DNA of 64,000 bases from Antedon mediterranea (lineage: Eukaryota; Animalia; Echinodermata). Of the stretch, positions 11,848-52,790 are shown one piece after another. The translations under genes and the position numbers were made by a program. The notes under the pieces were generated by a model. That model saw nothing but the letters and a program-made list of their open reading frames with translations, made no database searches and was not told where the DNA came from. How positions within the stretch are numbered: position 1 is the stretch's first letter; each line of letters opens with the position of its first letter. The stretch covers positions 11,013,888-11,077,887 of the forward strand of contig NC_092676.1 in NCBI RefSeq assembly GCF_964355755.1, given 5' to 3'.

Positions 11848-12110
11848 GTAATGATTTCAGAAAAATGTGTACTTTTTAATTTGAGCAGGAATGATAATCA
11901 AAAAATAGGTATTGCATTGATTCTGTTTGCAGCTTATTGCCAAACAGATAGTTAAGAACTTAATTGTTATTACAAAATAAAGATCCAGAAAGTTTTGTCT
12001 TTGCATTTCAACACTTTAATATTGTGTGTTCTTTATGTATATTAAAACAATCATTGTATACAATATATTGTATTTACTTTACTTATTTTAAATTTTGGTT
12101 TTTTTTAAAG

Positions 12111-17750: not shown

Positions 17751-17890
17751 TTGTTTTAGGCAAATTGGAAAGCAAATTAAACACAAGCACAAAAACTGTT
17801 TAGTTGACAGTCCATTGAGCACCAGTTTATTAGAATATGAATGCTGCACATACCAAACTCTGGTGTTATATTTACATGTAATCTTTCATA

Positions 17891-19217
17891 TTACATAAAA
17901 TTTCTTTTTGAACAACCAAAGATAGTATAAGCGAACTTACAGTACGTTTCGAAACCTATCAGGTTTCATTCTCAACTGGCGTTTCATCGTCTAGCGTTGT
18001 TAATCCCATGACGACGATGAGTTGGTATAGCGTCACCAATAGGTCCAAAAGGACGTGCCCCCCCCCCCCCCCCTTCTCCAATAGTTGATCATAAATGTGT
18101 GACAATTCGTGGGCTCCTTCATCTCTGTTCATGATTTTTCCATGTTTTCTGATGTTGATCGACTCTTTTATTTGCCTTTTTTGAGTGTTGCATTCTTTCT
18201 CAAGGATAGCAGCGTTCCAATCAATGAGGTGATTGTGTTGTAGTGCATGATCTGTTATTGCGGATTTATGTATGATTGATGATGTAGACGATCTTTGAGC
18301 CCTGGTTAAAATCCCTCCCGTGTTGTTTTCTGTGTCTGTGCGATGTTCTTTTATGCGTGTTTTTAAAGCCCTCCCTGTTTCCCCTATGTAAGCTTCGGGA
18401 CAGTTCAAACATTGTAGTTTGTAGATGCAACCGCATACTTGGTCTTTTTCGATGCGGTCTTTCGGATGAACGAGGTTTTGCCTGATCTTATTAGATGGGA
18501 TGAAAAAGGTGTCAATTTGATGTTGGTTGAAAATTCTTTTTATGCGTTCAGACAGACCTTTAGTGTATGGGATCCCGATGTTACAACGTGACTTATCTGT
18601 AGTAGATGTTGTACCTTTGCTGCGATTTTGATCAAGCTGTCGTTGCTGTTTTTGGAGTCGTTGTTTTTCTACCTTCTTGAATGTCCAATCTGGGTAGTCG
18701 CATTTCTTCAAAGCCTGTCTGATGTGATCCATTTCCTGTTTCTGTCCTTCAGGTTTTGAAACTATGTTTTCACATCTGTCCACACGCGTATTAATAACAC
18801 TGAGTTTGTGTTGTAATGGGTGATTTGACTTGAAATTTAAATACTGATCTGTGTGTGTCGGTTTTCTGTAGACTGAAGTTGTTAATGATCGGTTGCTTTG
18901 TAGTGTTATGAGAATGTCCAAAAAAGGAATGGTGGTGTTGGACATGCATTCGGTGGTGGATTTAATGTTTTGGGTAGTATCAATGTTGTTTAAGTGAGTG
19001 TTTAGATCGGGGCACGTCCTTTTGGACCTATTGGTGGCGCTATACCAACTCATCGTCGTCATGTGATTAACAACGCTAGACTCGACGATGAAACGCCAGT
19101 TGAGAATGAAACCTGATAGGTTTCGAAACGTACTGTAAGTTCGCTTATACTATCTTTGGTTGTTCAAAAAGAAATTTTATGTAATACCTATTCCACAACC
19201 AGATGAAATTCTTCTAA
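17891..19217 (-). mobile_element. 5'-truncated Penelope-like element with inverted pseudo-LTR
   Basis: RT thumb (PFLDILI, VYRKPTHTDQYL) and GIY-YIG (CIYKLQC..YIGETGR) in ORF 17959-19062. ~170-bp inverted repeat 17889-18060 / 19009-19186. 12-bp TSD TAATCTTTCATA (17879-17890, 19218-19229). Confidence 0.9.
19097..19135 (+). ncRNA. Penelope-type minimal hammerhead ribozyme motif (mirror copy on - strand at 17940-17978)
   Basis: CAG-TTGAGAAT-GAAACCT/GAT/AGGTTTC-GAAA-CGTA-CTG: variant core, stem II hairpin, GAAA and palindromic ACGT. Confidence 0.6.
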
Positions 19218-23980: not shown

Positions 23981-25074
23981 TAGGGTGATGATGATGACGT
24001 TATCAAACAAAAACTTGAAGATGACAATTTCGGAAGATAATGAATTTAACAAATAAATATAAGATTTGGAAGAAAATTTGGCACGTAGAAGCGCAGTGCG
24101 CCCTATTTAAAAATTGTTTAACTTTGACGAATAGATGAAAAAAACTACTTTTTAACTTCAACTGGCCATTATGATAACGTCACAACATCCGATAGGCTTA
24201 ATTTTTATATGAATTCATATCTACATTTCATCAGCTTTCATAATAAGTTATAATAACCAACCAACCTTTAATTCTGAAGACCTGCAAGATATCCAAATAT
24301 ACGGCGTGTGCATGTTCTGCATAGAAATTAACTACTGTAACAATAGCTAGAACTAGCTGATTAAAAGTTGAAGATTTCATGTCTAAGTGGCTGTAATGTA
24401 CCGATTTACAATACAAATAAGTGAGAGAGACAAGTTCTGTTATAGTTGAAAGCTACAACTGAAGTGTTTATTCTTTATTCTACTATATATAATAATATAT
24501 GTAATGGGTAATTAATCTGTCAAGGTGGAATGTTTAGTGGTCTCAGCAGAGGGTCTACTTTAGCCATTAGTGACCATTAAGTAGCCAAGGATTAGGAGTA
24601 TAGAAGTGGGTTAACATAATATATATGGCAACAGGTGAAGGAAGTATAAATAAATGGTAGCAAGTAAAACAATTCTAAGCTATTTATTTATAATTTGATT
24701 AAAGCACTCACTTTAAATGTATATGGTATAATGCACTGTATAAAGTAAAATATAAGATAAAAATTTTAAATTTCCAGTAATAATGTCCATAAAAGTTTCT
24801 ATATTTCAGTTATTAAGAATGTCCATATCTTTCCGGCGGTTTTCTATCGCGAGTAAGGTATACTCTTCGCTGAGCAGTCATAAGCTGTGCTTCGACAGTT
24901 GATTGTGATGTTTCCACTGTTCTATTTGGATTAATGAGCATTGGAGGTAATTTTGCAGGATCATCTTTGTTATTTAAGCTGTTTTTCCTGAGGTTGAACA
25001 GGCCTATAACGCTTCCTGATATGGTCGGCATGACGACGACAAACTCGTCCATCTTCTAGTTTTATCTTGAATGA

Positions 25075-27507
25075 GATATATAGATATAGATATCGATTGG
25101 TCAGTAGTTACCTCTATCGGAGATGTAAATGAAGCTCTGTATAAATTTAATGCATTACTTTTGGCTGCTATTGATTCCATTGCCCCCCTTAAAAACATTA
25201 GGATGAAACAAAGAACGGAACCATGGTTAACTAGAGAAATATTACAAGACATTGAAACCAGAGATAAATTATTAAATATGTATAATAAAAACAAGAATAA
25301 TACCGACTTATTAATACAATTTCGCAAACTAAGAAATAAAATACAGCGTGATATAAATAAAGCTAAATCAAATCATTTGTTAAACAAGGCTGAAGAAAAT
25401 AAAAATAACCCTAAAAAATTATGGAAAATGTTTAAAGGTCTAGGCTATAGTAATACATCTAAGGATAGTGATAAAACGGTTATTGACCTGCCCAATGGTA
25501 CTAAATGTTTCGACCCAGCCAAAATTGCTTCTTGCTTCAACGAATATTTTACTACTATTGCAGCCAATTTGGTCAGTAAACTTCCATCCCCTAAGAATGT
25601 GTATGACTGTGCGTCGTCCAAACTTAAGGATTTCTATAGAACCGTTAGTGGCAATAACTTTATGCTCAACTCAGTGGACGAAGACTTTATATATAGTGAA
25701 TTAAACAAACTTAATGCGACAAAAAGCACGGGTGTCGATAAGATACCTCTCCGCTTCATAAAAGATGGGGCTGAAATTCTAAAAGTTCCCATTACCTACA
25801 TAATTAATTTATCAATTAGTACCAGTACAGTCCCAGAAGACATGAAAAAGGCCAAGGTCATACCTCTTTATAAAAAAAGGTAGTAGAACCGATATTGGAA
25901 ACTATCGCCCTATAAGTATACTCAGTACAATGTCTAAAATTTTAGAGAAGGCTGTTTTTATTCAAATCGAAAAATACCTTACTGAAAACAACGTATTGTA
26001 TAAATATCAATCTGGATTTCGAGCTGCCGTCTCTACTGACACATGTTTGATAGACTTAGTTGATTCCCTTAAAACCCAAACTTCTAAGGGAAATTTCTCG
26101 GGTATGGTGTTGGTCGATTTAAAGAAGGCATTTGACACTGTAGATCATGACATTTTATGTAATAAGCTTAAATTAATGGGTATTGGATCTATTGAATGGT
26201 TCAAATCTTACTTATCAATAAGAAAGCAAATAGTAACTGTTGATGATCATCAATCTTGTACTGTTACATGCGGGGTTCCTCAAGGAAGTATCCTTGGACC
26301 CCTTTTGTTCTTATGTTTTGTTAATGACATGGTAACTTGTATTGATCCTGATTGTAAACTCCTTCTATACGCTGATGACAGTGCAATTGTTTATTCACAC
26401 AGAAATCCAGATATTATTTCTAAGAAGCTAGGGTCAACACTAGACTCCTTGTGTGATTGGCTTGTAGACAATAAATTAACAATTAACCTGGATAAAACTG
26501 AGTGTATACTATTTGGTTCTAAGAGAAAAACTAAACATGTTAACAATTTTAATGTCTCAACAAATGGTAACAATATCAACACTAGTAATTGTGTCAAGTA
26601 TCTGCAGGGTATTGAAATTGATCAAAATTTAACGTGTTCTGAATATGCATGTAAAACCATTGAGAAAATTAATAATAGGCTTAAGTTTATGTACCGCCAA
26701 CGTAAGATACTAAGTTGTAAGAATCGTAAACTATTATGCTCTGCTCTCATCCAATGTGTTTTTGATTATGCTGCATCTTCTTGGTTCTGTGGAACCAGTA
26801 AAGCTATCCAAAGAAAACTACAAATTGCTCAAAACAAAATGGTTAGACTCATAAAAGGAGTTGAACCCAGAAGACATATAGGTGCTGATCAATTAGACGA
26901 TTATGGATTGTTAAATGTAAAATATCGAGTAAAGTTCTTGCAAATTAGCCAAGTTCATAAAATATTTATGGGCAGAAGTGCTTCATACCTAAACGAAAAC
27001 TTTCGTAGAGTTAATAACTTACATGGTCACTTCACTCGTGGTAGTAAACTCAATTTTGTTGTACCTAAAGTCCAAGGCATAGAATGTAATACATTCTATT
27101 TTAATGCAATCAGAGAATGGAATAACCTTCCTGACTATATTAAACAAATTTCCAACACATATAAATTTAAAACTGAATTGAAACAATATTACAAAATTAA
27201 ACATAGATAAATTATTATTGTGCCATTATATCAGATGTTTTGTTTATATGCTTATTATGAACCCCGTCTTATAATGTTTGTTTTGTTAAAATTATAATTA
27301 CTATCTTTTTAGGGACCACATTGGAATTAAGTTGTTTTACTTTAAACGACTTTATGTGTTTTCCCGTGCATCGTCAGACTTCATTAATCCCGCCATTTTT
27401 ATTTGCTTTTTTAATGTATATTAATATTTAAGGTGATTATATATATTATTGATGTATTTTTAATGTTATTTATTGAGATGCCAAATAAATTAAAGAAAGA
27501 AAGAAAG
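25075..27507 (+). mobile_element. 5'-truncated CR1/L2-group LINE inserted in the Gypsy integrase tail
   Basis: ORF2 fragments 25071-25883 and 25930-27210 (KAFD, GVPQGSILGP, YADD, WNNLP), frameshift at an A-run near 25875. AATAAA then (GAAA)n tail. Confidence 0.88.
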
Positions 27508-30157: not shown

Positions 30158-30601
30158 TAAGAAAATTATACGATTAAATTATAACCTTCTAGTGCTTAAA
30201 ATATATATGGATAAACGCTAGTTGTATTTTAGGCTTAACATACGGCATACAGTGCTAACATATGGCATACAACGTTAACATAGGTGTACATTCTTCGTTA
30301 ACAACAACAACGACGAGCCACACCTTGTCATCCTCGTGGTAACATGTTGGACCAAAGATCCATAACATTCTTCTAATATAATAAGTAACAGCTAACAAAA
30401 TAACAACTATCAGATTCTAAGGTAAAAACATAACTACTATATATAGGTTCCGAAACTCACCAGAAAACATAAAGACGGTGATAAACACAGGTAACTTTGC
30501 ATAATTTGTTAAAAAGAACATAACCTTGCGGTCGGTAGAGCTAACCTTAGTTGACCCCAGAGGGCGCTACGATCAATAAAACTCCTCAAACGGACAGCAC
30601 A

Positions 30602-33600
30602 ACACCTCCTCCCCTTCTACAAAAGTGCGTTCTTTTGCATGACGACCATGGGCTAATTTCTGTTTTTCAAGGGTGTAAAAGATCAAATGCGTTTTCAAAT
30701 TTCGACCGTTAAGTAATTCTGCTGGTGTTTTGCCAGTTGTGCTATGAGGTGTATTTCTATATTTAAATAGTAATCTTGTGACTTTTGTTTCGGTAGATCC
30801 GTCTTTCAAACGTTTCATTGCTTCTTTAAATGTGCGTACAGCACGTTCCGCAAGACCATTCGATGATGGGTGATATGGGGCTGTTAAAGAATGTCTTATT
30901 CCATTTCGCTTTATGAATGTGTGAAATTCATCACTGGTGAAACATGTTTCACTGTCGGATACTATTTTATCTGGCAATCCATGCGATGCAAATATAAGCC
31001 TGAGCTTATCCACTGTGGTATTTGTCGTTGAGGAATTTACCGGAATTACCTCAAGCCATTTTGAGTATGCGTCGACAAGTATTAAAAAACATTTTTCCCA
31101 TAAATGGTCCAGCATAGTCGATGTGTAATCGTGACCATGGTCTATTTGACCAATTCAATAGGTGCAATGGTTCTTTAGGTGGTAAAGTTCGATTGGATTG
31201 GCATGTATCGCACTGTTTTGTCCTTAATTTGTTTGTCCATATTAGGCCACCATAACGAATCCCGAGCAAAACTTTTCATTCTGACAATTCCAGGATGACC
31301 GTCATGTAGTGCTTGTAGCAACTGTTTTCTACCAGGCTGTGGAACAACAATTCTATTTCCCCACAAAATACATCCATCTTGTGTAGAGAGTTCTCTTTGT
31401 CGGATCCAAGATGGTTGCAAGTTTTCAATTTTTGGATTAGTATTGGGCCAACCCTTTTCAATGTAGTAAAGAACTCGAGAAAGTGTTGGATCTTTAACTG
31501 TCCAACCTGTAATATCTGCTGTGGAAACTGGAGATTGGTTCATTGAATCCATCAATAGAACAGTTTCGGCAGCTTGTGTGGAATTGATTCTGGTTTTCCT
31601 GGCAATAGTAATCTGCTTAAGGCATCCGCATTGGCATGGGACTTTGTCGGTTTGAATCTTAATGTATATTTGTATGTACCTAATTTCAGCGCCCAACGTT
31701 GGATTCTAGCTGATGCTTGGCTAGGCACAAGTCTGTCCTCATTAATAAGACCCAGCAATGGCTTATGGTCTGTTACCAATGTGAAATGTCACCATAAATG
31801 TAAGAATGAAATCGGGTTACTCCGAAAACGCATGCAAAACCTTCTTTCTCAATTTGCGAATACTTTTTTCCGCTTCTGCAAGTGTTCTAGATGCAAATGC
31901 GATCGGTCTTTTTGTACCGTCACTTAGTCGATGTGCTAACACAGCCCCAATTCCATATTGAGATGCATCACACGGTAGTATTATTTCCTTTTTTGGATCA
32001 TAATGTGCAAGTACTCTGGAGGAAAGTAGCAATTCATTTGATTTATCAAAAGTAGATTTTTCTAAATGTGTCTAGTTCCAAGCTTTATCCTTACGAAGTA
32101 AGGCATATAACGGAGCAAGCGTGTTGGATACGTTTGGTAAAAACTTTCCATAATAAGATAACAATCCCAAATAAGCTCTCAGTTCTGTCAAGTTTTGAGG
32201 CGCTGGAGCATCTTTAATTGCTCTCACTTTGGCGTTTGTGGGATGCAATTCCTCTTTGTCGATCGTGTGTCCCAAATAATCTACAGATTTAACCATAAAA
32301 ACACACTTTTTTTTAGACGAAGTCCAGCATCTGCCAGTCGATTTAGGACGGTTTCAAGAGTTTTGGAGTAATTTTTTCCTGTAATTAATATATCGTCCAG
32401 GTATACTGTAACACCTTTAATTCCTTGTAATAGTCTTTCCATGACACGCTGGAAAATTGCTGGTGCTGAAGATACTCCAAACGGCAACCGTGTTTATTGG
32501 TAAAGTCCCTTTTGAGTGTTGATTACAACATATTTTCGAGAATCTTTGTCTAAGAGTAATTGTTGGTACGCTTGTGACATGTCCAATTTAGTAAATTTTT
32601 CTCCGTTAGCTAACGATGAAAAGATATCTTCAATCCTGGGCAAAGGATACTGATCAACTTTGGCTGGTTTATTTACAGTAATTTTGTAGTCACCACAGAT
32701 CCTAACGGTAGATTTATCCGCCTTAAGTACCGGAACTATTGGTGCAACGCAGTCTGAAAACTGTATAGGTTCAATAATGCCTTCTCGTTGTAAGCGATCA
32801 AGTACGTCATCTACTTTCTGTCGCAAAGCATACGGAACATTTCTGGCTTTGCAAAATGTTGGCATTGTCTCTTTATCAACGTAAATTTTTGCTTCAGTAC
32901 CCTTAAGGGTACCTAGTTCGTCTCTAAATATTTCTTGGTATTAACCAAGCAGTGAACTTAAATCTAATTGGTTTATTACCTTGATTTTTTGCCAGTCCAA
33001 CTTTATAAACTGAAGCCAGTCTCGACCAATTAGGGTAGGTCCATCTGTTCGCACAATCGTTAATAGTAATATTGTAGTAGTACTCTGGTATGTAACTTCA
33101 GCATTAATTTTACCAAAAACATCCATTATTTGTCCAGTGTGTGTACGTAGCTTAATTGACGATGGTTCAAGTTCTCTTTTAGGCCATAATTGCCTAAATT
33201 TTGTCTGCGACATTATTGATACCGAGGCTCCTGTGTCAATTTCCATTTCAGTATCCAAACCATCTAACAGTATCTTAACTTTCATAGGTGGAAGACTAGA
33301 CATGGTCTTTATTCCAAATAATTCTTCATACATTTCTGTACGTAGCTATGTTTGCTTGGTTCATCGCTTGTTGGCTCATCTGCCACAACATTTTTAACCG
33401 TTTGGGGCTTCCCCTTTTTTTGCTAAGACAAACAAATTGAATGTGTCCTACCTTGTTACAATAATGGCAAGTTGTTTACTTAAAATAACATTTGTCTGGC
33501 AAATGGTTATTCTTTCCACAGCGAAAACATCGTTTCGACTTCTTATCTGTATTTGATGTAAATTTTGACTTCTTTTTGTAAGCAATCTTGTTTACTGCGC

Positions 33601-35720: not shown

Positions 35721-37484
35721 TGACAAAATATACTGTAGCCTTTGATTGCCCTTGTTTTGGCCTAACCTACCACTAGTAATTTTTTTTCTTGCACTATTTT
35801 TAATACCGGTTGGAGCCAATTTAGTCTGGAAAATCTTTTTAGAAAAACCTGCTTGAGAACACTGAAATTAATTAAACGGTAACATTAAAAATATAAAGTT
35901 AAAAAAAACACATTTAAAACATTGATATTCTTAGTTTGATCATTTTTACCTCCATTGTTTGATAGTCATATACCTTATATAATAATTGTGCAATGTTTGA
36001 TATTGGCAATTTTAAAATTAAAACAACTGTTTGAAACTTTAATATTCTTTGTAAGCTCTGTCTACACTATCAAACTTTGTGATAAAAAATGTGATGTACC
36101 TGTATGTGAACATGTTAATGTCTTTTGGGAGGCATCCTTTCATCATTTTGTTATGGTTTTATATTAATAAGGAATTTAACGTTAAAACAGCCGTTTTTTA
36201 AGTTGGTAGGTGTAATGATATGTCAAATGAATAAAATATTAAATGAAAAAACACGATTTTGTGAGAGATGAGTAGTAAAATAAGTTGGCCTAGCCCTCAT
36301 AGAGGGCGTTTGAGGGGATGACATTAGTTAATCCTATTATAATTAATACAATGGTAAACAATGGTAAGGGAGTAAGACAATGGAGTTGTTATTTAATTTG
36401 AAAAAGACAATGGTTAACGATGGTAAGGAAGTAAGACAATAGAGTTGTTTGGTTTTGGAAGTTAATCAATGACAATATTAAAAAGACAAGAATATAATGA
36501 AGTGATATTTAAGTATGTCTTTATTGAACTATACTATTTCCTTTTAAAATAAAACAAAAAGGAGGTAAAGAGGGACGCTACTATTTTAATGTGTATAAAT
36601 ATAGGGTAAAATTTATACTGAACTCATCAGTATCAGTTTTCAAAGCGTTGTAAGTTATTTGATCCGGATATTATAACAATGACTAAAACATCGGCCTAGT
36701 CAGTCGTGATTATAATATTGGTTAACAATGGAGGTAGTATAAGACAATAGAGAATATCATTTCACTAGAATTGTTATATAGAATTGTTATATATTAATAT
36801 ACATTATAATATAAAATTATTAAATAATAAATAAAAAATATTTGGTGATGATTTAGTCGTTTGTGATGAGAACAAATGGTTTACAATGGTTGAAGTCAAT
36901 AGGTGTTATGTTTCGGATATAATAATACAATGGTTAACATTGGGTAAGGAAGTAAAAGATTGTTGTAAGATTTGAATTAGTCATGTACTTGGCGGTATTT
37001 TTAAAAAGGGGTACAATAAAAGATGCACCTGGTTTAATTAAAACAACGTAACAACATAAGTTATTTGATCAGGATATTATAACAATGACTAAAACAAAAA
37101 GTTAAGAGAATTTAGTACAGTTTTCATCAGTATGAACTTCTACAAACCAACAGCTGATTACGCCGATTCTAAATTAGCTGATAAGGCTAAGGCTACTATG
37201 CAGCGAGTTATGAGAAAACGGTTTGATCTTCGATGATCTTGGATCGGAAATTTTTTAAATTGAATGACATTGGGGAAGCTACTTAATGAAACAAAAGATA
37301 CACGGCGCTTCGACACAATGTTCCGACAGGAAATACAACAATGACAATTGGCTGAAACAAATTTGGTAAATGCCGAATGTAATCTTTTGACTGTATATAA
37401 CTCTCGAATATTTTGTAATATTTACCTCATTCTACAACGCTACAGAGCTCGACAAGACAGACAAAAAACCAACAACTAGTTACT

Positions 37485-38214
37485 ATGGGTTCCGTGATTG
37501 AAATCATTGATCTTACTATGGACTCTGATGTCGAAGAAGAAGTTATATATATATAAGCAGTGATTCAAAATTTGAAGACGAAGACATACTAGCTATGACT
37601 GGTGCCTATTTTACAGCAAAGGAGGAGGAAGAGATGAGGGAAGAGATGGGGGATATGACGTGTTTAATGGCGATTCAACCCCACCTCCAATGAACGTTGA
37701 TTTCAATAATGTATCTAATACTGAAGAAGACGAACATTATAGATCGAGAATAATTTCTGAAGAGGAGAGGATTGTATACGATGACACGTCATCGGTAGTT
37801 GACTACCACCTATTTCTGGCAAGAAAAGCCGATGTAGAAGATGAGGTAGAAGATGAGGTGTTTGCGGAAGAGTACCTGAACCCTGTGCTGGAGGCGGAGA
37901 TTAAGAAAGAAACTACCGAACTTGAGTACAAAGAGATAATGAGAACAATTGAGAAGGTTTTCATAGAAGAATTTATATTCATTCTGAAGGACATGGTTGA
38001 ACGTTATAACTTTCACGGCTCAAGATATGAACAACTCCTAACATTTTTTCGACCAATTCTGGCATTGCAACTTGTGGACAATAGCGCTACTCATTTTGAA
38101 TGGGCGCTAAACTACTTTCATTTACGTTGTATCAATGTTGATGCGTTCGATAAAGCCATAAAGTTGATTACAAATGATTCAGAACTTTTTAATAAGATTC
38201 TTTACCAATTGTAA
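37485..38214 (+). CDS. Acidic orphan Polinton protein with SIM-like motifs (frameshifted 5' part plus 184-aa ORF); mirror copy 45394-46121 (-)
   Basis: MGSVIEIIDLTMDSDVEEEVIYISSDSEFEDED overlaps the 184-aa acidic/helical ORF in another frame. Confidence 0.55.
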
Positions 38215-38468
38215 TTTGTACAAATTAAAAATAATATCTTAACACTTTTTTAATTAATGTTACATAATTTTGTAATTCTTATTTCTTTTCGGTAAATTTA
38301 TTATTATTATGGTTGTAAATTATATTGAAATAGAATGTGTGTTAAAATAAAGGTTGTGTTTTTTCTTTTAAAAGCAAAAACAACGAAAATGAAATTTGAT
38401 CTTTGCGTGTTATTTAAGTATCTGATTTATTTTTTTAATTTTCATTTGGGTGAATGAGAGTAATGAGT

Positions 38469-38700
38469 ATGAATGAGTACTTAAGAAAAGTATATTACAA
38501 TTCTAAGCATCCTGATAGTTTTGGTGGTGTGGACCGACTTTATCAAAATGTAAAAGACGATTTAAATATTACCAAGAGACAAGTTCAAGACTGACTGAGC
38601 AAGCAAGATACATATACATTACACAAATCCATTCAACGTAAATTCAAACAAAACTGGGTACTTGTAAGTGCTATTGATGAACAATGGGGAATGGATTTGG
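38469..38700 (+). pseudogene. Polinton retroviral-like integrase N-terminal fragment; mirror ~44915-45140 (-)
   Basis: MNEYLRKVYYNSKHPDSFGGVDRLY...VQD*LSKQDTYTLHK..IDEQWGMDL, typical of Polinton integrase N-termini. The in-frame TGA is shared by both arms. Confidence 0.8.
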
Positions 38701-38727
38701 AAAAATAACGTTTTATAAAATTTGATT

Positions 38728-38890
38728 CAGACAAACTGTTTGCAAAATCAAAGGTTTGACTCTAGATTTCCAAAAATCAAAGGAAGTCAATTTTGAAATA
38801 GTTGGTAGCATGGTACGAGGAATCGGACTGGAAAAAATAACAACAACTAATCCTAACAAAATAACCCGTAAACCAAAATCTCACTTAATA
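38728..38890 (+). pseudogene. Polinton protein-primed DNA polymerase B C-terminal fragment; mirror ~44727-44890 (-)
   Basis: RQTVCKIKGLTLDFQKSKEVNFEIV..ITTTNPNKITR resembles the Polinton pPolB TVCKVRGFTLN..INF motif. Confidence 0.7.
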
Positions 38891-40274
38891 TTTATTTTTT
38901 ATTAGAAATTTGTAAAAGTAGTTACCCTATTTTAATTCATGGTAAATTTATTTTTCGAATTAATTTAATTTGTTTTATTTTCTGTTGAATTTTTATTATT
39001 ATTATGTTTGTAAAGTGTATTGCAATAGATTTGTTTAATAAAATAAATAAATTAATTATGTTTTGACTTAATTTATGTCAGTGTAAATTTTGTAAAAGTA
39101 GTTTTCCTATTTTAATTCATGATAAGTTTATTTCATGACTTTACTTAATTTTTTCTTTTCTGTTAAAGTAGAATGTGTATTGAAATACATTTTGTTTTTT
39201 AACATCAACAACAAAAAAATGAAATTTTATCTTTGCGTGTTGTTTAATTCGTGTATGATGTTTTTCTAATTTATTTATACAAAAAAAAAAGAAAACAAGT
39301 TTTTGAATTTGTTAAATGTAATTGCAAACATACATAATAAATTATTGCAATTAAAAATTATATTTTGTAAAGTGTATTACAATAGAATGTGTATTGAAAT
39401 ACATTTTGTTTTTAACATCAACAACAAAAATGAAATTTGATCTTTGCGTGTTGTTTAACTCGTGTATGAAGTTTTTGAATTTGTTAAATGTAATTGCAAA
39501 CATACATATTAAATGATTGTGATTAAAAATATTCTGTTTACTTTTTATTTTTTATTTTAAACAGTAGTATTTTTAACAGTAGTTATATTTTATATATAAT
39601 AAGTAATATTACAAAAATAAACATACAAAATGTATAAAGCATAGACTTATTAAATTTAAATACACTTTCTTTATTTCAAAATGAATTTCATTTTATACGT
39701 GTTTTCAATTTTAAATCTTTTAAGAAAGACACAATACGTACTGATATAAAAACGCACACAAAAGAAAACAAATTTGAGACGCACGGTTTGTAACGACACT
39801 TTCAATAAGAAGGCATATTATAAATGTATTTTTACCAAATTTATAAAGTAAATGCTTATTATTGAGAAATATACATTTTAGATAAATGATAACACATCTA
39901 AAATTAATTAGAGAGATCAATACAATATGGTGTTCATAATAATTTGTTTTTGATGACTAGAGGAAACATCTGAAGACATTCAACGAAAAACAAGCGTTAT
40001 CACCATACCAGTCACTAAGAATGCTACTATTCTGAAGAAAAAAACATCTCCCTTCCTACACAGAAACAAATTCTGAACGAAAATAAAAAATAAAAAAATA
40101 AAAAATAATTAGTAAACAAAACACGCGCATTATAAATAAAATGAATAATTTAAGAATATTTGTTAAACTACCCACGAACAAAAAACGAAACATACTAACC
40201 GATTCATCGTCATTACGAAGTTCAAATAACGAAAACTTTTCCTTGAAAAATCCACAGGAGACACGTTTTACATT

Positions 40275-40556
40275 TTATAACTGCAATTCAGTGTCACATT
40301 GTGTCGCAACACATGTACATACAACGAGTCCTGTCACAAGTCTGCCGACATTTATTTTTCTATCGCTCATCATTTGTTCTAATACATAATACAGCGCTTC
40401 CAAAGAAATATCTTTACACAATTCTAACACATTAAAATTGTTTTCCAACTCTTTACAAGCACGAATAGTACTCTGGAGGATGGGTGAATCCAAAACAACT
40501 AACCCCGTCAATTTATATTCGATGTATGCTAAAACTACTTCCTCTAAATCAACCAT
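40275..40556 (-). CDS. Bcl-2-like protein, left arm
   Basis: From ATG 40556: BH4-like DLEEVVLAYIEYKL, BH3-like ILQSTIRACKELE, BH1-like VLEQMMSDRKINVGRLV. Confidence 0.65.
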   Translation of the reverse strand: MVDLEEVVLAYIEYKLTGLVVLDSPILQSTIRACKELENNFNVLELCKDISLEALYYVLEQMMSDRKINVGRLVTGLVVCTCVATQCDTELQL

Positions 40557-41906
40557 AACGCTCGACAAAACAAATGATAATGGATGTATAATTACCAAGA
40601 AAGTTACAACTTAAAACCTTTATTTTTGCTTTTAAAAAGAAGTTGTAACATAGAAACTAATTTTGTCAGGAAATTTGTTTTTATTATTTATGTGATTTAT
40701 TTGTGTTTAGAAAGTTACAACATTAACATTTAATTTGGTAAAAAAATGTGAATATACGGATCCGATTGTAATTTTTAATCCTTAGTATAGTGAGAGATTT
40801 TATAAACAAAAAAAGAGCGAACGGAAATTAATGATTGCAGATTAGACATATAGTAGAAATGGATTGAAATTGGAAATCTACATGATCAAAGAAAAGAAAC
40901 CCATTGTTCCGACAGAAGCTAATGACATTTACAAAGGATGACACACTTTGAATTGAGTAAATACCGTATAACATAATTAAATTTTGTCAAGATAGTTGTC
41001 AAAAAGAAATAAAATATATTATACTGAATTTACTTTGTACATTTATTTAATTTAGGCCGTAATTAGGTTTGTTGTTCATTTATGATTGTGACAAAAAAAA
41101 AATACATACTAATAAAACAGCTATAGGCCTATAAAAAAAGTTTAAAAAAATAATGATTCAGTGTTATAATTTTATTTACCTGTCATTATGTTAATAAAAC
41201 ATATTCTAAATTTAATTTATGTCATGTTAGATATATTTTCAAGGACATTTGTTACATACAAATAATTTTGTAAAGAAATTTGTTAAGAAGTTTGTTTCAT
41301 AAAAATATTTGTGAAGATAAATTTATTACATAAAAATAATTTTGTAAAGAAATTTGTTACATAAATTTATTTTTACAAGAAGTTTGTAACAGAAAATTAT
41401 TTTGCAAAGAATTAGTTGCATCAATTGATTTTATCAAACGTATGTAACATAAAAAAATTATGTTGTTGAATAAAATATTTTGTAATTCAGTCCATTTGCT
41501 CAGTAGTTTGTTTAAGTCTTGTTTGTGTAATATTCTTGTAAATAAAAGAATTTATTTTTAACCTTTGTAATTATTTTGTAAATATCATTTATGCATTTTT
41601 TTTGTCGTAAATAATTGAATTTATTTATACTTTTTGTACGGGAATCAATATTTGTTTATAAATTTAATTATTATTATAGATTTCTTCTTTATTTAGTATG
41701 TCGATTAATTTCAGATTCAGAAACATGTTACACAAGAAACAAAAATTGTCATGAAATTCGTTACATAAAAAATAATTTATCAAGAATTTTTTTTTACATA
41801 AATTTTAATTTATCATTAATTTTGTTATAAAATTTATTTTGTCATTAAATTTGTTAGATAAAAAATAGTTGTTTCATGATTCTAGTTCCTTTTGTTCAGT
41901 ACTTAT

Positions 41907-42000
41907 ATGGAAATTCAAGTTAAGAATGCAATGACAATGACTGGGTGTTTAGCGTGATTAGCGGACCGCTTTCCTCCGGTAAATCGGTATTTGTTAACAA
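41907..42000 (+). pseudogene. Packaging ATPase N-terminal fragment (Walker A) in the palindrome spacer
   Basis: TCAGT then ATG MEIQVKNAMT, frameshift, then VISGPLSSGKSVFV (GxxxxGKS at 41963-41986), truncated where the right arm begins. Confidence 0.65.
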
Positions 42001-43097
42001 TATTGATTCCCGTACAAAAAGTATAAATAAATAAAATTATTTACGAAAAAAAAATGCATAAATGATATTTACAAAATAATTACAAAGATTAAAAATACAT
42101 TCTTTTATTTACAAGAATATTAAACAAACAAGACTTAACAACTTAAACAAACTACTGAGCAAATGGACTGAATTACAAAATATTTTATTCAACAACATAA
42201 TTTTTTTATGTTACATACGTTTGATAAAATCAATAGATGCAACTAATTCTTTGCAAAATAATTTTCTGTTACAAACTTCTTGTAAAAATAAATTTATGTA
42301 ACAAATTTCTTTACAAAATTATTTTTATGTAACAAATTTATCTTCACAAATATTTTTATGAAACAAACTTCTTAACAAATTTCTTTACAAAATTATTTGT
42401 ATGTAACAAATGTCCTTGAAAATATATCTAACATGACATAAATTAAATTTAGAATATGTTTTATTAACATAATGACAGGTAAATAAAATTATAACACTGA
42501 ATCATTATTTTTTTAAACTTTTTTTATAGGCCTATAGCTGTTTTATTAGTATGTATTTTTTTTTGTCACAATCATAAATGAACAACAAACCTAATTACGG
42601 CCTAAGTTAAATAAATGTACAAAGTAAATTCAGTATAATATATTTTATTTATTTTTGACAACTATCTTGACAAAATTTAATTATGTTATACTGTATTTAC
42701 TCAATTCAAAGTGTGTCATCCTTTGTAAATGTCATTAGCTTCTGTCGGAACAATGGGTTTCTTTTCTTTGATCATGTAGATTTCCAATTTCAATCCATTT
42801 CTATATGTCTAATCTGCAATCATTAATTTCCGTTCGCTCTTTTTTTGTTTATAAAATCTCTCACTATACTAAGGATTAAAAATTACAATCGGATCCGTAT
42901 ATTCACATTTTTTTACCAAATTAAATGTTAATGTTGTAACTTTCTAAACACAAATAAATCACATAAATAATAAAAACACATTTCCTGACAAAATTAGTTT
43001 CTATGTTACAACTTCTTTTTAAAAACAAAAATAAAGGTTTTAAGTTGTAACTTTCTTGGTAATTATACATCCATTATCATTTGTTTTGTCGAGCGTT

Positions 43098-43379
43098 ATG
43101 GTTGATTTAGAGGAAGTAGTTTTAGCATACATTGAATATAAATTGACGGGGTTAGTTGTTTTGGATTCACCCATCCTCCAGAGTACTATTCGTGCTTGTA
43201 AAGAGTTGGAAAACAATTTTAATGTGTTAGAATTGTGTAAAGATATTTCTTTGGAAGCGCTGTATTATGTATTAGAACAAATGATGAGCGATAGAAAAAT
43301 AAATGTCGGCAGACTTGTGACAGGACTCGTTGTATGTACATGTGTTGCGACACAATGTGACACTGAATTGCAGTTATAA
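43098..43379 (+). CDS. Bcl-2-like protein, right arm (identical protein)
   Basis: Mirror of 40275-40556. Confidence 0.65.
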   Translation: MVDLEEVVLAYIEYKLTGLVVLDSPILQSTIRACKELENNFNVLELCKDISLEALYYVLEQMMSDRKINVGRLVTGLVVCTCVATQCDTELQL

Positions 43380-46300
43380 AATGTAAAACGTGTCTCCTGT
43401 GGATTTTTCAAGGAAAAGTTTTCGTTATTTGAACTTCTTAATGACGATGAATCGGTTAGTATGAAATATTCTTAAATTATTCACTTTATTTATAATGCGC
43501 GTGTTTTGTTTACTAATTGCTTTTTATTTTTTTATTTTTTATTTTCGTTCAGAATTTGTTTCTGTGTAGGAAGGGAGATGTTTTTTTTCAGAATAGTAGC
43601 ATTCTTAGTGACTGGTATGGTGTTAACGCTTGTTTTTTGTTGAATGTCTTCAGATGTTTCCTCTAGTCATCAAAAACAAATTATTATGAACACCATATTG
43701 TATTGATCTCTCTAATTAATTTTAGAAGTGTTATCATTTATCTAAAATGTATATTTCTCAATAATAAGCATTTACTTTATAAATTTGGTAAAAATACATT
43801 TATAATATGCCTTCTTATTGAAAGTGTCGTTACAAACCGTGCGTCTCAAATTTGTTTTCTTTTGTGTGCGTTTTTATATCAGTACGTATTGTGTCTTTCT
43901 TAAAAGATTTAAAATTGAAAACACGTATAAAATGAAATTCATTTTGAAATAAAGAAATTGTATTTAAATTTAATAAGTCTATACATTTTGTATGTTTATT
44001 TTTGTAATATTACTTATTATATATAAAATATAACTACTGTTAAAAATACCACTGTTTAAAATAAAAAATAAAAAGTAAACAGAATATTTTTAATCACAAT
44101 CATTTAATATGTATGTTTGCAATTACATTTAACAAATTCAAAAACTTCATACACGAGTTAAACAACACGCAAAGATCAAATTTCATTTTTGTTGTTGATG
44201 TTAAAAACAAAATGTATTTCAATACACATTCTATTGTAATACACTTTACAAAATAAAATTTTTAATCGCAATCATTTATTATGTATGTTTGCAATTACAT
44301 TTAACAAATTCAAAAACTTGTTTTTTTTTTTTTTTGTATAAATAAATTAGAAAAACGTCATACACGAATTAAACAACACACAAAGATAAAATTTCATTTT
44401 TTTGTTGTTGATGTTAAAAAACAAAATGTATTTCAATACACATTCTACTTTAACAGAAAAGAAAAAATTAAGTAAAGTCATAAAATAAACTTATCATGAA
44501 TTAAAATAGGAAAACTACTTTTACAAAATTTACACTGACATAAATTAAGTCAAAACATAATTAATTTATTTATTTTATTAAACAAATCTATTGCAATACA
44601 CTTTACAAACATAATAATAATACAAATTCAACAGAAAATAAAACAAATTAAATTAATTCGAAAAATAAATTTACCATGAATTAAAATAGGGTAACTACTT
44701 TTACAAATTTCTAATAAAAAATAAATATTAAGTGAGATTTTGGTTTACGGGTTATTTTGTTAGGATTAGTTGTTGTTATTTTTTCCAGTCCGATTCCTCG
44801 TACCATGCTACCAACTATTTCAAAATTGACTTCCTTTGATTTTTGGAATTCTAGAGTCAAACCTTTGATTTTGCAAACAGTTTGTCTGAATCAAATTTTA
44901 TACACGTTATTTTTCCAAATCCATTCCCCATTGTTCATCAATAGCACTTACAAGTACCCAGTTTTGTTTGAATTTACGTTGAATGGATGTGTGTAATGTA
45001 TATGTATCTTGCTTGCTCAGTCAGTCTTGAACTTGTCTCTTGGTAATATTTAAATCGTCTTTTTGATAAAGTCGGTCCACACCACCTAAACTATCAGGAT
45101 GCTTAGGATCGTAATATACTTTTCTTAAGTACTCATTCATACTCATTACTCTCATTCACCCAAATGAAAATTTAAAAATAAATCAAATACTTAAATAACA
45201 CGCAAAGATCAAATTCCATTTTCGTTGTTGTTGCTTTTAAAAGAAAAAACACAACCTTTATTTTAACACACATTCTATTTCAATATAATTTACAACCATA
45301 ATAATAATAAATTTACCGAAAAGAAATAAGAATTACAAAATTATGTAACATTAATTAAAAAAGTGTTAAGATATTATTTTTAATTTGTACAAATTACAAT
45401 TGGTAAAGAATCTTATTAAAAAGTTCTGAATCATTTGTAATCAACTTTATGGCTTTATCGAACGCATCAACATTGATACAACGTAAATGAAAGTAGTTTA
45501 GCGCCCATTCAAAATGAGTAGCGCTATTGTCCACAAGTTGCAATGCCAGAATTGGTCGAAAAAATGTTAGGAGTTGTTCATATGTTGAGCCGTGAAAGTT
45601 ATAACGTTCAACCATGTCCTTCAGAATGAATATAAATTCTTCTATGAAAACCTTCTCAATTGTTCTCATTATCTCTTTGTACTCAAGTTCGGTAGTTTCT
45701 TTCTTAATCTCCGCCTCCAGCACAGGGTTCAGGTACTCTTCCGCAAACACCTCATCTTCTACCTCATCTTCTACATCGGCTTTTCTTGCCAGAAATAGGT
45801 GGTAGTCAACTACCGATGACGTGTCATCGTATACAATCCTCTCCTCTTTAGAAATTATTCTCGATCTATAATGTTCGTCTTCTTCAGTATTAGATACATT
45901 ATTGAAATCAACGTTCATTGGAGGTGGAGTTGAATCGCCATTAAACACGTCATATTCCCCATCTCTTCCCTCATCTCTTCCTCCTCCTTTGCTGTAAAAT
46001 AGGCACCAGTCATAGCTAGTATGTCTTCGTCTTCAAATTCTGAATCACTGCTTATATATATAACTTCTTCTTCGACATCAGAGTCCATAGTAAGATCAAT
46101 GATTTCAATCACGGAACCCATAGTAACTAGTTTTTTTTTTTTTTTGTCTGTCTTGTCGAGCTCTGTAGCGTTGTAGAATGAGGTAAATATTACAAAATAT
46201 TCGAGAGTTATATACAGTCAAAAGATTACATTCGGCATTTACCAAATTTGTTTCAGCCAATTGTCATTGTTGTATTTCCTGTCGGAACATTGTGTCGAAG

Positions 46301-47911
46301 CGCCGTGTATCTTTTGTTTCATTAAGTAGCTTCCCCAATGTCATTCAATTTAAAAAATTTCCGATCCAAGATCATCGAAGATCAAACCGTTTTCTCATAA
46401 CTCGCTGCATAGTAGCCTTAGCCTTATCAGCTAATTTAGAATCGGCGTAATCAGCTGTTGGTTTGTAGAAGTTCATACTGATGAAAACTGTACTAAATTC
46501 TCTTAACTTTTTGTTTTAGTCATTGTTATAATATCCTGATCAAATAACTTATGTTGTTACGTTGTTTTAATTAAACCAGGTGCATCTTTTATTGTACCCC
46601 TTTTTAAAAATACCGCCAAGTACATGACTAATTCAAATCTTACAACAATCTTTTACTTCCTTACCCAATGTTAACCATTGTATTATTATATCCGAAACAT
46701 AACACCTATTGACTTCAACCATTGTAAACCATTCGTTCTCATCACAAACGACTAAATCATCACCAAATATTTTTTATTTATTATTTAATAATTTTATATT
46801 ATAATGTATATTAATATATAACAATTCTAGTGAAATGATATTCTCTATTGTCTTATACTACCTCCATTGTTAACCAATATTATAATCACGACTGACTAGG
46901 CCGATGTTTTAGTCATTGTTATAATATCCGGATCAAATAACTTACAACGCTTTGAAAACTGATACTGATGAGTTCAGTATACATTTTACCCTATATTTAT
47001 ACACATTAAAATAATGTATGCATGATGTCAGTAGCGTCCCTCTTTACCTCCTTTTTGTTTTATTTTAAAAGGAAACAAAGAATTCTCTATGTAAAACGTA
47101 AACCATTTAAATGAAAATGAAAGTTAATTTAAAGTTAGAAATAATAATTATTTGTTTTACTTTTTTTTTGAAAAATAGTGAAACTTAACATCTTGCTTCA
47201 CGTTACACCAATCATTCATTGCGAATCCCCATTGTTAAAATTTTCCGGAAGAAATTAAGTACATGTTGGTATAGTTCAATAAAGACATACTTAAATATCA
47301 CTTCATTATATTCTTGTCTTTTTATTATTGTCATTGATTAACTTCCAAAACCAAACAACTCTATTGTCTTACTTCCTTACCATCGTTAACCATTGTCTTT
47401 TTCAAATTAAATAACAACTCCATTGTCTTACTTCCTTACCATTGTTTACCATTGTATTAATTATAATAGGATTAACTAATGTCATCCCCTCAAACGCCCT
47501 CTATGAGGGCTGGGCCAACTTATTTTACTACTGAGATGCTACTTCATTAGCCAAGCGCGACACATCCCTCCTATGTTTAAATATAAACCTTAGGATAGGT
47601 TTCGATATAATAATAAATATATATAATATAATATAATATATAATATAATTTTAATAATATAATTTTGATGTCAAAGTTCAAATTTAGCCAATTACAACAA
47701 TGTGTTATATTAATGTATTATAACCAATTTATTGGAGCATAATTTGGTCTTTTATTACTTTTTCATGGTAAAAAAATTCGAAGGGTCAAAGGTCAATATA
47801 TATATATATATACCAATCAAATAATTTAACTATAAAAAAACCCAATAAAATCTAACAAATAACATAAAATGTGACGACCCAAAGCAGATCACATAATGTC
47901 GTCAGTTGGCA

Positions 47912-49513: not shown

Positions 49514-52500
49514 TTAAGTTCTGTAATTCAATAAAATGTCTCTTTTTACATATTTTTTTAGTATTTTATAATTTTTGTTAACAATATCTAAGTGATTTCT
49601 ACAGAGCTCGTTCCATAGTTTTGGTCCGTGAATACTGATAAAATGTTGACCAGACGTTAACCTAGAGTATGGTTGTTTTACGCTACAAATATTTCGAAGA
49701 TTATGGGTAGTATTTCTGGGTAAAACATTGCTTTTAATCTGGGCCATGAAACCTAGGACGGTAACTCTGTTGATATCTTGTATGTTAAGTATATTTAATT
49801 GCTTAAACAGTGGCTCAGAATGTTGCCATGGCTTTTTAAATAAAATTATTCTAGCAGCCTTTTTCTGGAGTTTAAGAAGGGATTCTAGTGTACTATCATA
49901 TGTACTGCCCCAAATAATGTTTCCATACTGAAGGTGCGGTAGAATTAATGTATTATACAAATTTGTTAAAATATAATTAGGAAAAAAATGTCTAGTTTTT
50001 ATCAATATTCCAATAGACCTAGCGGTTATTTTGCTAATAAGCCTTATATGATTTTTCCAGCAAAGGTTCTCATTTATTACAACCCCAAGAAATGTTACAT
50101 TTTTTTGTTGTTCTAAAGTAATGTTATTCATTTTCAATTCAATGTTGGTTGTAATAATACGCCTTTGGGCAGTTTTAAAGATTACGTAATTTGTTTTGCT
50201 GGTGTTTAATAAAAGTTTATTAGCTTTGAACCACATATTAATTCTATCTAGTTCCACATTCATAGTGTTTGCCAATGCGTTCAGGTTATTTCCACACTTG
50301 AATCCTGTTGTATCATCGGCAAAGCTAATTAATTCAATTTGTGTACTTGAGTTACATATTTCGTTTACATATACAAGAAACAACAAAGGTCCCAAAACGG
50401 ACCCTTGTGGAACACCAATACTAGTCTCCTTAATATTAGACGAAGTACCATTTATAAAAACATATTGCTTTCGTGATTTTAAGTAGTTACTGAACCATTT
50501 TAGTGTAACACCTCTTATACCATAGTGGAATAGCTTGTTCAGTAATATACTGTGGTCAATAATATCAAATGCCTTTGACAAATCCATAAATGTGGCAATT
50601 ACGAACTCTTTGTTTTCAAATGCCTTTAGTATTTTGTGGATCAGATCAATTATAGCGTGGGAGGTTGAATGATTGTTTCGGAAGCCGTATTGCCAATCAT
50701 TTAGTATATTGTAAGTTTTAAAGTAATTATACAATCTGGAATGGACTATCTTTTCAAAGATTTTAGAGAAAATTGGTAGTAGTGATATCGGGCGATAATT
50801 CGAGGCTAAATGACGGTCCCCTTTTTTGTATATGGGAATTACTTTTGCAATTTTTATCTGTTCCGGTATTGAGCCGGAGTGAAGAGATACGTTAAATATA
50901 TAAGTCAAGGGCTTTACAATAGCATCACCAACTGCCTTGATCACCTTTGGTGAAATATCATCAAAACCAGGTGTTTTGTTTGCATCAAGTGATTGAATCA
51001 CTTTTAACACTTCCTCCTCATTTACATGGTAGAAAAACATAGAGTTACTTTGCCTGTTTAGCAGGTTATCAGAGTATTGTGCCGTTGATGGCTCAATACT
51101 GTCTCGTACCTTGAGACCAACATTAATAAAATAATCGTTAATGTGGTTTGCAATAGGCTCACAACCCTCTATGAGTTTGTCACCAGATGTAAAAGTGGAT
51201 GGAACATTATTTTTGCCTCCACCTGGATTTATAATATCATTTATAATATTCCATGTTTTTATTTTATTTCCTTTAGTATTGTTAAAAACATTTTCATAAT
51301 ATGATTTCTTTGCCTTTTTGCATGTACGCATAAATGACTTATTAAACTCTTTATAAATATCCTTATTTTTAGACGAGGGATGTTTTATAAATTTGTTGTA
51401 CAACGCATGTTTTCTTTTGCTAGACTTTAAGAGTCTTGAGCTCATCCATGGTTGTTTGAACTTTTTATACTTTTTGTGATTTTCTTGAACTTTTTCTTTT
51501 TTTTAAAAGTTTTTATTATATAATTTTTTGAAAGTGTTGATAAAAGCATTGTAAGCATCATCAGGGTTTGTCCTTACATATACATCAGCCCAATCAACAG
51601 GTAATAAGTCATTATATAGTTTATTTATGTTTCTTTCGTTTATTGCATATTTATGAGGTTCTATATTACCGGTTTTTACTTTAATATGTTTGTCGGGCAC
51701 GGAGTGGATAATTTGGTATACCGGTAAATGATCAGATATGTCTGAGATTAGTATACCAGATAACATTTGTTCAGAAAGTGTATTGGAGAAAATGTTATCA
51801 ATTAATGAAGATGTGTTGTTTTGTATTCTAGTGGGTCTTGAAATCGATGGGTAGAAGGAATGCGACATCATTACTTCTAGAAAATTATTTACAAAATCAA
51901 TCGATGCATGCTTAAGTAAATTAATGTTAAAATCACCCATAATGTGGCATGATTTTCCCTCGATATCAATAGTATTAAGAATATCGTCTAGTGATCTATT
52001 AAAAAGTTCTATATTCGAATCGGGAGGTCTATATATTATACCAACAATCGTATTGTTACATTTTTTTTCAATTATTTCAATAAACATACATTCACAAGAT
52101 TCAATAAATAGATCTTTTCTTTCTTTTATGTCAATTGTAGCAGAAACAAACATACCAACTCCCCCTCCTTTACGGTTCTTTCTATCTAATGCGAGGAAGT
52201 CATAGCTCGGTAAATATGGTTTGCACGATGTATTGTTTAACCATGTTTCCGATATACCAATAACTGTAAAGGGGTGGTTGATTAAGTTTAGATATGTAGT
52301 TAGTTCACCAATGTGTTTATTGATACTTCGAATATTATAGTGAAGAAATGAGTAGCCAATATTTTTTAATTTCTTCACAGATTCATTCAAGTCATATGGA
52401 CTCATATAAGAACATGTCTCAATAGCATTTAGTTTGTTTCTGACACTATATTCAATGAATTCGTCATGGTCATTATTACCATTATCAATAGATATTGGAT

Positions 52501-52564
52501 TAAATAGTATATCCATTGGATTTGATATTTCGTTTTCATCACCGTTATTTTTATTGTTATCCAT
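49514..52564 (-). CDS. LINE ORF2: APE endonuclease plus RT (one frameshift at an A-run near 51500)
   Basis: HYNIRS, ISETWL, IYRPP, MGDFN and SDHLP in ORF 51503-52564; YRPISLL, KAFD, GVPQGS and FADD in ORF 49514-51445. Confidence 0.9.
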
Positions 52565-52790
52565 GCTTTGATTTGGTATGTTTATTGATTGTATTTGTCT
52601 ATAAAAAACTATTTTAATTAATATAATTTATAATACTATGCTTATGTCTACTGCTTAATTTCAGTTACAATAACTTTCTGAATTTGTGTTACCTTACAAT
52701 TGTTGAAATTTGTGGTAACGTGGTCTACCTCTTCCCGTGTTAGCTTTTCTGCGAGATAGATCTAGAACGTTTTCAACTTTGTATCTGACA

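What the first reader, a model, noticed from the sequence alone, without database searches (positions are those of the whole stretch)
36271..47532. Polinton integrated as an 11 kb near-perfect palindrome, resembling a snap-back/copy-back defective viral genome
Seen: AGTAGT termini, intact 6-bp TSD GAGATG, and ~5.4-5.5 kb inverted arms around a ~350 bp spacer, with all internal ORFs duplicated head to head. Known: Polintons have AG/AGT-repeat termini, 6-bp TSDs and TIRs normally far shorter than these arms, and are thought to replicate by protein-primed strand displacement. Inference: the polymerase folded back and recopied the left half. This made a molecule with two functional ends that a helper integrase inserted, analogous to snap-back defective genomes of linear DNA viruses. 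The intact TSD argues the palindrome existed before integration. It could be a non-autonomous Polinton satellite family.
Basis: partly seen in the sequence, partly recalled or inferred. Interest (0 to 1): 0.9.

Follow-up and report, generated by a model that had tools for sequence, protein, structure and literature searches.

The report
Folded-back defective Polinton, junction mapped
This 11-kb stretch is a mirror-image DNA element made of two copies of the left part of a broken virus-like Polinton transposon; its relatives read on past the turning point, so it likely formed when copying stopped, folded back and recopied the same strand, and it is likely a fossil trace of how these elements replicate.

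Summary
The palindrome is real: arms 36271-41649 and 42002-47532 (1.0% substitutions, 15 indels), 352-bp spacer, AGTAGT//ACTACT ends, 6-bp TSD GAGATG. It is Polinton-derived but was already defective. Each arm holds an integrase start fused to a pPolB end, a Bcl-2-like ORF and an orphan ORF. The spacer ends in an ATPase Walker-A remnant.

Contigs from another individual show a multi-copy family with the same deletion, and some of them read on past 42001 in the ATPase frame. So the left arm plus spacer is the parent and the right arm is a fold-back copy, not a natural long TIR. Both arms share letters absent from those contigs, so they come from one template.

Not shown: that the palindrome formed before integration (TIR-primed repair in place also keeps the TSD), or that other copies share this junction (no junction-spanning contig was listed).

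Seven literature searches found no report of whole-element palindromic Polintons. This scan noted such elements in other genomes before (five unchecked notes). This case adds a mapped turning point inside a gene.

The parts
36265..36270 (+). left target-site duplication GAGATG
36271..41649 (+). left arm: parent-polarity part of a deleted Polinton, begins AGTAGT
   Evidence: continuous with the spacer in relatives
37690..38214 (+). 174-aa orphan ORF, open in both arms (copy 45394-45918, minus strand)
   Evidence: no relatives; model pLDDT 41
38469..38705 (+). N-terminal ~78 codons of a Polinton-type rve/chromo integrase with an in-frame stop; catalytic core absent
   Evidence: 77% to P0001, 49% to P0002 (rve + Chromo)
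38729..38872 (+). C-terminal remnant of pPolB, joined to the integrase start by a large internal deletion
   Evidence: matches residues 849-895 of the 970-aa DNA_pol_B_2 ORF of L005 (E 2e-5) and others; a contig of run X1 bridges this join
40275..40556 (-). 93-aa Bcl-2-like ORF, identical protein in both arms (copy 43098-43379, plus strand)
   Evidence: Pfam Bcl-2 E 1e-3, below the cut-off; Atlas 0.90 to Bcl-2 clusters; FPV039 E 0.19; Foldseek top rows Bcl-2 family, all E>0.6
41252..41432 (.). degenerate 31-bp AT-rich tandem array in the arm (copy 42195-42386)
41650..42001 (+). single-copy spacer (loop of the fold-back), with AT-rich repeats and the ATPase remnant
41930..42001 (+). 5' remnant of a packaging-ATPase-like frame with a Walker A motif, cut at the junction
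   Evidence: motif seen; best matches are L005/L002 Pox_A32-type ORFs, 57% over 14 aa, E 0.1-0.2, not significant alone; relatives read on in this frame
41989..42002 (.). fold-back junction 42001/42002: 13-nt imperfect match (11 of 13, one gap) to the reverse complement of 41650-41663; 10-bp perfect palindrome at 41991-42000
   Evidence: sequence; loose ends behind 42001 in X6 and X9
42002..47532 (-). right arm: inverted copy of the left arm, ends ACTACT
47533..47538 (+). right target-site duplication GAGATG

Best explanation
The element is a whole-element palindrome derived from an already deleted, multi-copy Polinton family, and it likely arose when protein-primed copying stopped inside the ATPase gene, folded back about 350 nt and recopied the strand to its own end, after which a helper Polinton's integrase likely inserted it. 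Steps: (1) shown: the arms carry an integrase-start/pPolB-end fusion that the family shares; (2) shown: relatives continue past 42001, so the left arm plus spacer is the original and the right arm is the copy; (3) shown on listed sites: both arms come from one template; (4) inferred: the 3' end re-annealed at a weak AT-rich microhomology and was extended to the terminus, which gives two identical origins and integrase ends; (5) inferred: this happened outside the chromosome, with pPolB and integrase supplied in trans; (6) shown: the arms have since drifted 1.0% apart.
For: Ends (AGT)2//(ACT)2 and a 6-bp TSD match the Maverick signature (PMC8097293 passages). Published TIRs are 46-1,447 bp or 100-1,500 bp (PMC10748475), against 5.4 kb here. 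Integrase and pPolB remnants. Loose ends behind 42001 in both runs of sample S6 (1 contig in X6, 2 in X9). Read by eye, the X6 one keeps the ATPase frame for the 10 codons shown; the X9 one has a stop. Of 24 listed left-arm sites where the window differs from the contigs, 20 are shared by both arms. Of the 13 where the window letter is essentially absent from X9 (98% or more other), 9 are shared. Precedent for template switching by a protein-primed polymerase: subgenomic Phi29 molecules in vivo (PMC4974454 passage). Definition of snap-back/copy-back genomes: PMC13506859 passage.
Against: No contig bridging 42001/42002 is listed or 19 (22 of 441 pieces shown). Only one record per run overran the ends, probably at the flank end. 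Sample S6 differs homozygously from the window in the flank (33683), so it is another individual and may lack this insertion; multiplication of the palindrome is not shown. Depth does not decide: X9 arm about 7,300-8,600, spacer 3,657 at 41884 and 6,234 at 41962, and some arm sites also drop to about 3,600. The junction microhomology is weak (-5.6 kcal/mol; a chance site at 41079 scores -7.6). The ATPase label rests on a motif and context, not on a significant alignment. No autonomous helper with the same ends was seen: no genome is held.
Confidence: 0.62

Rival explanations
1. The palindrome formed in the chromosome after an ordinary copy had integrated. A break was repaired by the right TIR invading the left TIR, copying 5.4 kb inward and rejoining by microhomology at 42001, which keeps the TSD.
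For: The TSD would survive (inference). Nine arm-shared letters are absent from the other individual's contigs, as expected of an old genomic copy used as template. No second copy of the junction was seen.
Against: It needs a 5.4-kb repair tract ending at weak microhomology. Shared private letters also follow if an old genomic copy was excised, folded back and re-integrated. Five scan notes report palindromic Polinton-ended elements in other genomes, three or more as large families; these are unchecked leads only.
Confidence: 0.23
2. Two family copies lay head to head (one inserted inverted into the other), and deletions then removed the middle and one end.
For: The family is multi-copy in the species, and nested Polintons rearrange loci (PMC11414722 passages).
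Against: The arms share 9 of 13 listed letters that are absent from the family's contigs, so they come from one template. Later arm-to-arm conversion could mask two origins, but the differences are only weakly clustered (P=0.05 for the longest identical tract, P=0.10 for dispersion).
Confidence: 0.07
3. The parent naturally has about 5.4-kb TIRs, and this is a simple internal deletion derivative.
For: Copies that fold back further along the element cannot be excluded; arm depth exceeds ATPase-end depth by about 1.2-1.6 in X9.
Against: The arms contain gene remnants, and the junction cuts a reading frame that relatives continue. In 44 of 63 metagenome Polinton loci long enough to test, the longest inverted match was 649 bp (these loci were selected for an intact integrase).
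Confidence: 0.05
4. The palindrome is an assembly or chimeric fold-back-read artefact.
For: No read spanning the junction was seen.
Against: The arms differ at 54 substitutions and 15 indels. At 4 listed sites the right arm, and at 3 the left arm, carries the letter found in the other individual's contigs, so the differences are evolutionary. The repeat stops exactly at the termini, with distinct flanks and a TSD.
Confidence: 0.03

Closest known systems
Polintons/Mavericks (adintoviruses) of animals
   Same: (AGT)2//(ACT)2 ends, 6-bp TSD, remnants of rve-chromo integrase, pPolB and an ATPase-like frame; Bcl-2-like accessory genes are reported in adintoviruses (PMC8502044 passage).
   Different: No intact core gene; the inverted repeat is 5.4 kb (96% of the element) against 46-1,500 bp; genes lie inside the repeat.
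Defective or non-autonomous Polinton/PLV remnants that keep TIRs and TSDs
   Same: Internally deleted, keeps ends and TSD, would need proteins in trans (10.64898/2026.07.28.741278 passage); most vertebrate Mavericks are degraded.
   Different: Those keep two different sides between short TIRs; here one side replaces the other as an inverted copy.
Snap-back/copy-back defective viral genomes; Phi29 subgenomic molecules; self-complementary truncated AAV genomes
   Same: One terminus plus adjacent sequence copied back on itself through a template switch, giving two functional ends around a short loop (passages). Adenovirus incomplete-particle DNA with duplicated left ends is recalled only (Daniell 1976 not held).
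   Different: Those are seen as replicating or packaged molecules; this is an integrated germline fossil, and no extrachromosomal or packaged form is shown.
Foldback transposons (FB, Galileo)
   Same: Very long inverted arms with internal tandem repeats (recalled).
   Different: The ends, 6-bp TSD and gene remnants are Polinton-type; no cut-and-paste transposase was seen in the element.

Membership tests
Polinton/Maverick (autonomous) | (AGT)2//(ACT)2 or (AG)3//(CT)3 ends | tested here: met
   AGTAGT / ACTACT (motif)
Polinton/Maverick (autonomous) | 6-bp TSD | tested here: met
   GAGATG on both sides
Polinton/Maverick (autonomous) | TIRs of about 50-1,500 bp | tested here: not met
   arms of 5,379 and 5,531 bp
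Polinton/Maverick (autonomous) | intact integrase and pPolB | tested here: not met
   only the integrase N-terminus and the pPolB C-terminus, fused
Polinton/Maverick (autonomous) | ATPase, protease and capsid genes | tested here: not met
   5 of 35 ORFs from loci L002, L005 and L017 hit the element, all integrase or pPolB; ATPase is a Walker-A remnant only
Non-autonomous Polinton derivative | Polinton ancestry with core genes lost and ends kept | tested here: met
Non-autonomous Polinton derivative | multi-copy family sharing the deletion | tested here: met
   X9 contig depth about 7,300-8,600 in the arms against 220-320 for flank contigs; contigs cross the integrase/pPolB join in X6, X9 and X1 (depth is only a rough guide)
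Non-autonomous Polinton derivative | autonomous partner with the same ends in the genome | not testable with these tools
   no genome held; no match elsewhere in the window
Snap-back/copy-back defective genome | one end copied back on itself around a short loop, with the parent reading through the turning point | tested here: met
   352-bp spacer; read-through relatives at 42001
Snap-back/copy-back defective genome | made by the element's own polymerase during replication | not testable with these tools
   inferred; repair in the chromosome is not excluded
Snap-back/copy-back defective genome | propagates as a palindrome with a helper (same junction at several sites) | tested here: inconclusive
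   no junction-spanning contig listed; depth ratios 1.2-2.5 and not reliable

The most novel reading that the evidence does not exclude
Animal Polintons throw off snap-back defective genomes by pPolB template switching, and these integrate and spread as palindromic satellites. This copy catches the event with its turning point inside the ATPase gene and its read-through parent family still in the species: a second-order parasite (a snap-back of a deletion defective) and fossil evidence of strand-displacement replication with self-priming.
Probability: 0.45. Interest if true: 0.8.

Novelty: new variant of a known kind. Interest (0 to 1): 0.62.

Why it matters
In the papers read here, Polinton replication is a model and virions have not been observed. 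A copy-back product with a mapped turning point, a known polarity and a surviving read-through parent is the kind of molecule that protein-primed strand-displacement replication would leave. It makes that model testable from genomes alone, by comparing junction positions, loop sizes, microhomology and which end is copied across many palindromes. It would also extend the defective-interfering-genome idea to integrating DNA viruses of animals, and it shows one route to multi-kilobase palindromes in animal genomes. If it formed by repair in place, it is a local curiosity of much lower interest.

Tried and rejected
No whole genome is held, so no genome-wide copy search was possible.

The 174-aa ORF found no relative in Pfam, the 5.8-billion-protein search (30 candidates, 0 hits) or the 1.84-billion representative search. 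The Atlas did not answer for it, and its single-sequence model was unusable (pLDDT 41). The Bcl-2-like ORF had no homologue by word search. Its model was low-confidence (pLDDT 48), so the Foldseek rows are only a weak echo.

Three viral-contig scans found nothing. My first reading of 38740-38830 as the integrase chromodomain end (note) was wrong: it is the pPolB C-terminus.

A 2:1 arm-to-spacer depth ratio at 41884 looked like evidence for a palindromic family. I rejected it because arm sites 37027 and 39135 drop as low, and X6 depth follows GC content. Run X1 has no cover over the spacer, and X2 little cover; absence in contigs proves nothing.

The test for patchy arm-to-arm conversion was borderline. 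[quoted passage not shown] Repbase entries could not be searched, so a prior description there cannot be excluded.

Full report
OBSERVATION. Self-BLAST shows one inverted repeat that begins exactly at 36271 and ends at 47532. With the junction placed as described below, the arms are 36271-41649 (5,379 bp) and 42002-47532 (5,531 bp) around a 352-bp spacer. They differ by 54 substitutions in 5,313 aligned columns (1.0%) and 15 indel events, including 191 bp found only in the right arm. The ends are AGTAGT and ACTACT. GAGATG lies on both sides (chance about 1.8e-4), and the flanks are unrelated beyond it. The host is an animal-like, 33% GC genome with an NHS-like gene and many retroelements nearby. 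No whole genome is held.

POLINTON ANCESTRY, ALREADY DEFECTIVE. Six-frame reading shows a broken frame at 38469-38705. Read through with X at its stop, it matches the N-terminus of rve and rve-chromo integrases (77% and 49%; 2 hits among 7 candidates). I fetched 63 metagenome loci with this integrase type and searched their 1,321 ORFs against the element. Hits fell in only two places: the integrase start, and 38729-38872. The second matches the C-terminal end of pPolB (residues 849-895 of a 970-aa DNA_pol_B_2 ORF). So the integrase start is joined to the polymerase end, and both catalytic cores are gone. Of 35 ORFs from three reference loci, 5 hit the element, all integrase or pPolB. At 41930-42001 a Walker-A motif in the context typical of the packaging ATPase is cut off by the right arm. 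Its best matches are the Pox_A32-type ORFs of the reference loci, but only at E 0.1-0.2. Two ORFs stay open in both arms. One is a 93-aa Bcl-2-like protein: four weak signals agree, none decisive, and Bcl2 homologues are reported in adintoviruses (PMC8502044, passage). The other is a 174-aa orphan.

RELATIVES IN SEQUENCING RUNS. Nine runs were listed and four were laid, all as contigs. Runs X6 and X9 (one sample) differ homozygously from the window at flank position 33683, so they come from another individual. In X9, arm contigs have depth about 7,300-8,600 against 220-320 for flank contigs, so the family is multi-copy, roughly 25-30 arm copies per diploid genome if depth is taken at face value (the tool warns that it is no copy number). 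Contigs cross the integrase/pPolB join in X6 and X9, and one X1 contig (another organism label) bridges 38526-38885. The deletion is therefore a family trait. On the stretch 41664-43100, both X6 (1 contig) and X9 (2 contigs) have loose ends behind 42001 (15 of 69 loose-end rows shown). These relatives leave the window's sequence exactly where the right arm begins. Read by eye, the X6 letters keep the ATPase frame for the 10 codons shown, and the X9 letters contain a stop. This fixes the polarity: left arm plus spacer is parental, and the right arm is the added copy. At the junction, 41989-42001 matches the reverse complement of 41650-41663 at 11 of 13 positions with one gap, and 41991-42000 is a perfect 10-bp palindrome. 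The pairing is weak (-5.6 kcal/mol) and not the best site on the arm (-7.6 at 41079).

ONE TEMPLATE. One search showed 40 of 345 variant rows. I used the 24 in the left arm and left out 11 flank rows, 2 spacer rows and 3 rows where the other letter was under 10% in X6 and X9. At 20 of the 24, both arms carry the same letter against the contigs. At the 13 where the window letter is essentially absent from X9, 9 are shared and 4 are private to the left arm. Of 5 right-arm rows taken (those near 100% in both runs), 3 are private to the right arm and 2 are shared. The arms therefore descend from one molecule that had already diverged from the family, and have since drifted apart. This argues against an artefact and against two independent copies. 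Arm differences are only weakly clustered (P=0.05 and 0.10), so there is little sign of patchy conversion.

WHAT IS NOT SHOWN. No contig bridging 42001/42002 is listed (22 of 441 pieces shown; no strand-switch joint listed in either call). Depth ratios of arm to spacer run from about 1.2 to 2.5 and are confounded by lost variants and GC bias. So I cannot say whether other copies are palindromes. No helper element was seen.

MECHANISM. Best reading (0.62): a genomic copy of the deleted family was excised and copied by a helper's pPolB from the left end. Synthesis stopped at 42001, the 3' end re-annealed about 350 nt back and was extended to the terminus, and the resulting hairpin with identical ends was duplicated and inserted by the helper's integrase. 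The excision, TIR-annealing, pPolB and integrase model is cited for Polintons in 10.64898/2026.07.28.741278 (passage). Template switching gives subgenomic molecules in protein-primed Phi29 (PMC4974454, passage) and self-complementary truncated genomes in AAV vectors (PMC7397707, passages). Rivals: repair in place (0.23), two nested copies (0.07), natural long TIRs (0.05), artefact (0.03).

COMPARISON AND NOVELTY. It works like a snap-back defective genome (definition: PMC13506859, passage) and is a non-autonomous Polinton derivative. It is not an autonomous Polinton. Published TIRs are 46-1,447 bp (PMC8097293, passages), 100-1,500 bp (PMC10748475, passages) and 584 bp in Anolis (PMC3014272, passages). 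In 44 of 63 fetched loci long enough to test, the longest inverted match was 649 bp. Seven full-text searches for palindromic, fold-back or non-autonomous Polintons listed no paper describing a whole-element palindrome. I saw those as listings, plus passages of the papers cited and of PMC6431247, PMC11414722, PMC8504770 and PMC5033970. No supplements were read, and the founding paper and Repbase were not available, so prior mention there is possible. This scan has five unchecked notes on palindromic Polinton-ended elements in other genomes, mostly gene-less and some in families of hundreds, and none on this sequence or genome. I treat them as leads. What this case adds from its own evidence is gene remnants and read-through relatives that locate and orient the turning point.

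VERDICT. Observation confirmed; interpretation partly supported; new variant of a known kind; interest 0.62.

Noticed in passing
window 36635-41479, run X1 (organism A): A run with another organism label holds the arms at about 96-97% identity, including the integrase/pPolB join, but has little cover of the unique flank and none of the spacer. The defective family may be shared between species or have moved between them.
   Followed up: partly
window 36052-36097: A short, very high-copy repeat about 170 bp left of the insertion (bin depth above 100,000 in X9, hundreds of loose ends); not identified.
   Followed up: no
window 11163-16833 (+): Exons of an NHS-like host gene (Pfam NHS hits for 2 of 3 frames tested).
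   Followed up: partly
window 17889-19186: An ORF on the minus strand that looks like a Penelope RT-end/GIY-YIG (label recalled), flanked by a 178-bp inverted repeat at 96%.
   Followed up: no
window 2213-3644; 25071-27210; 30573-33345; 49514-52627: Retroelement frames that look like DIRS/tyrosine-recombinase, LINE RT, gypsy and a nearly intact endonuclease-plus-RT LINE (labels recalled from the translations).
   Followed up: no
window 37690-38214 and 40275-40556: These two accessory ORFs stay open in both arms while every core-gene remnant is broken. This hints at retention in the defective family but was not tested for selection.
   Followed up: partly
window 40740-40960 and 37100-37690 (+): Decayed coding-like stretches with stops and no match among the 1,321 reference ORFs.
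   Followed up: partly
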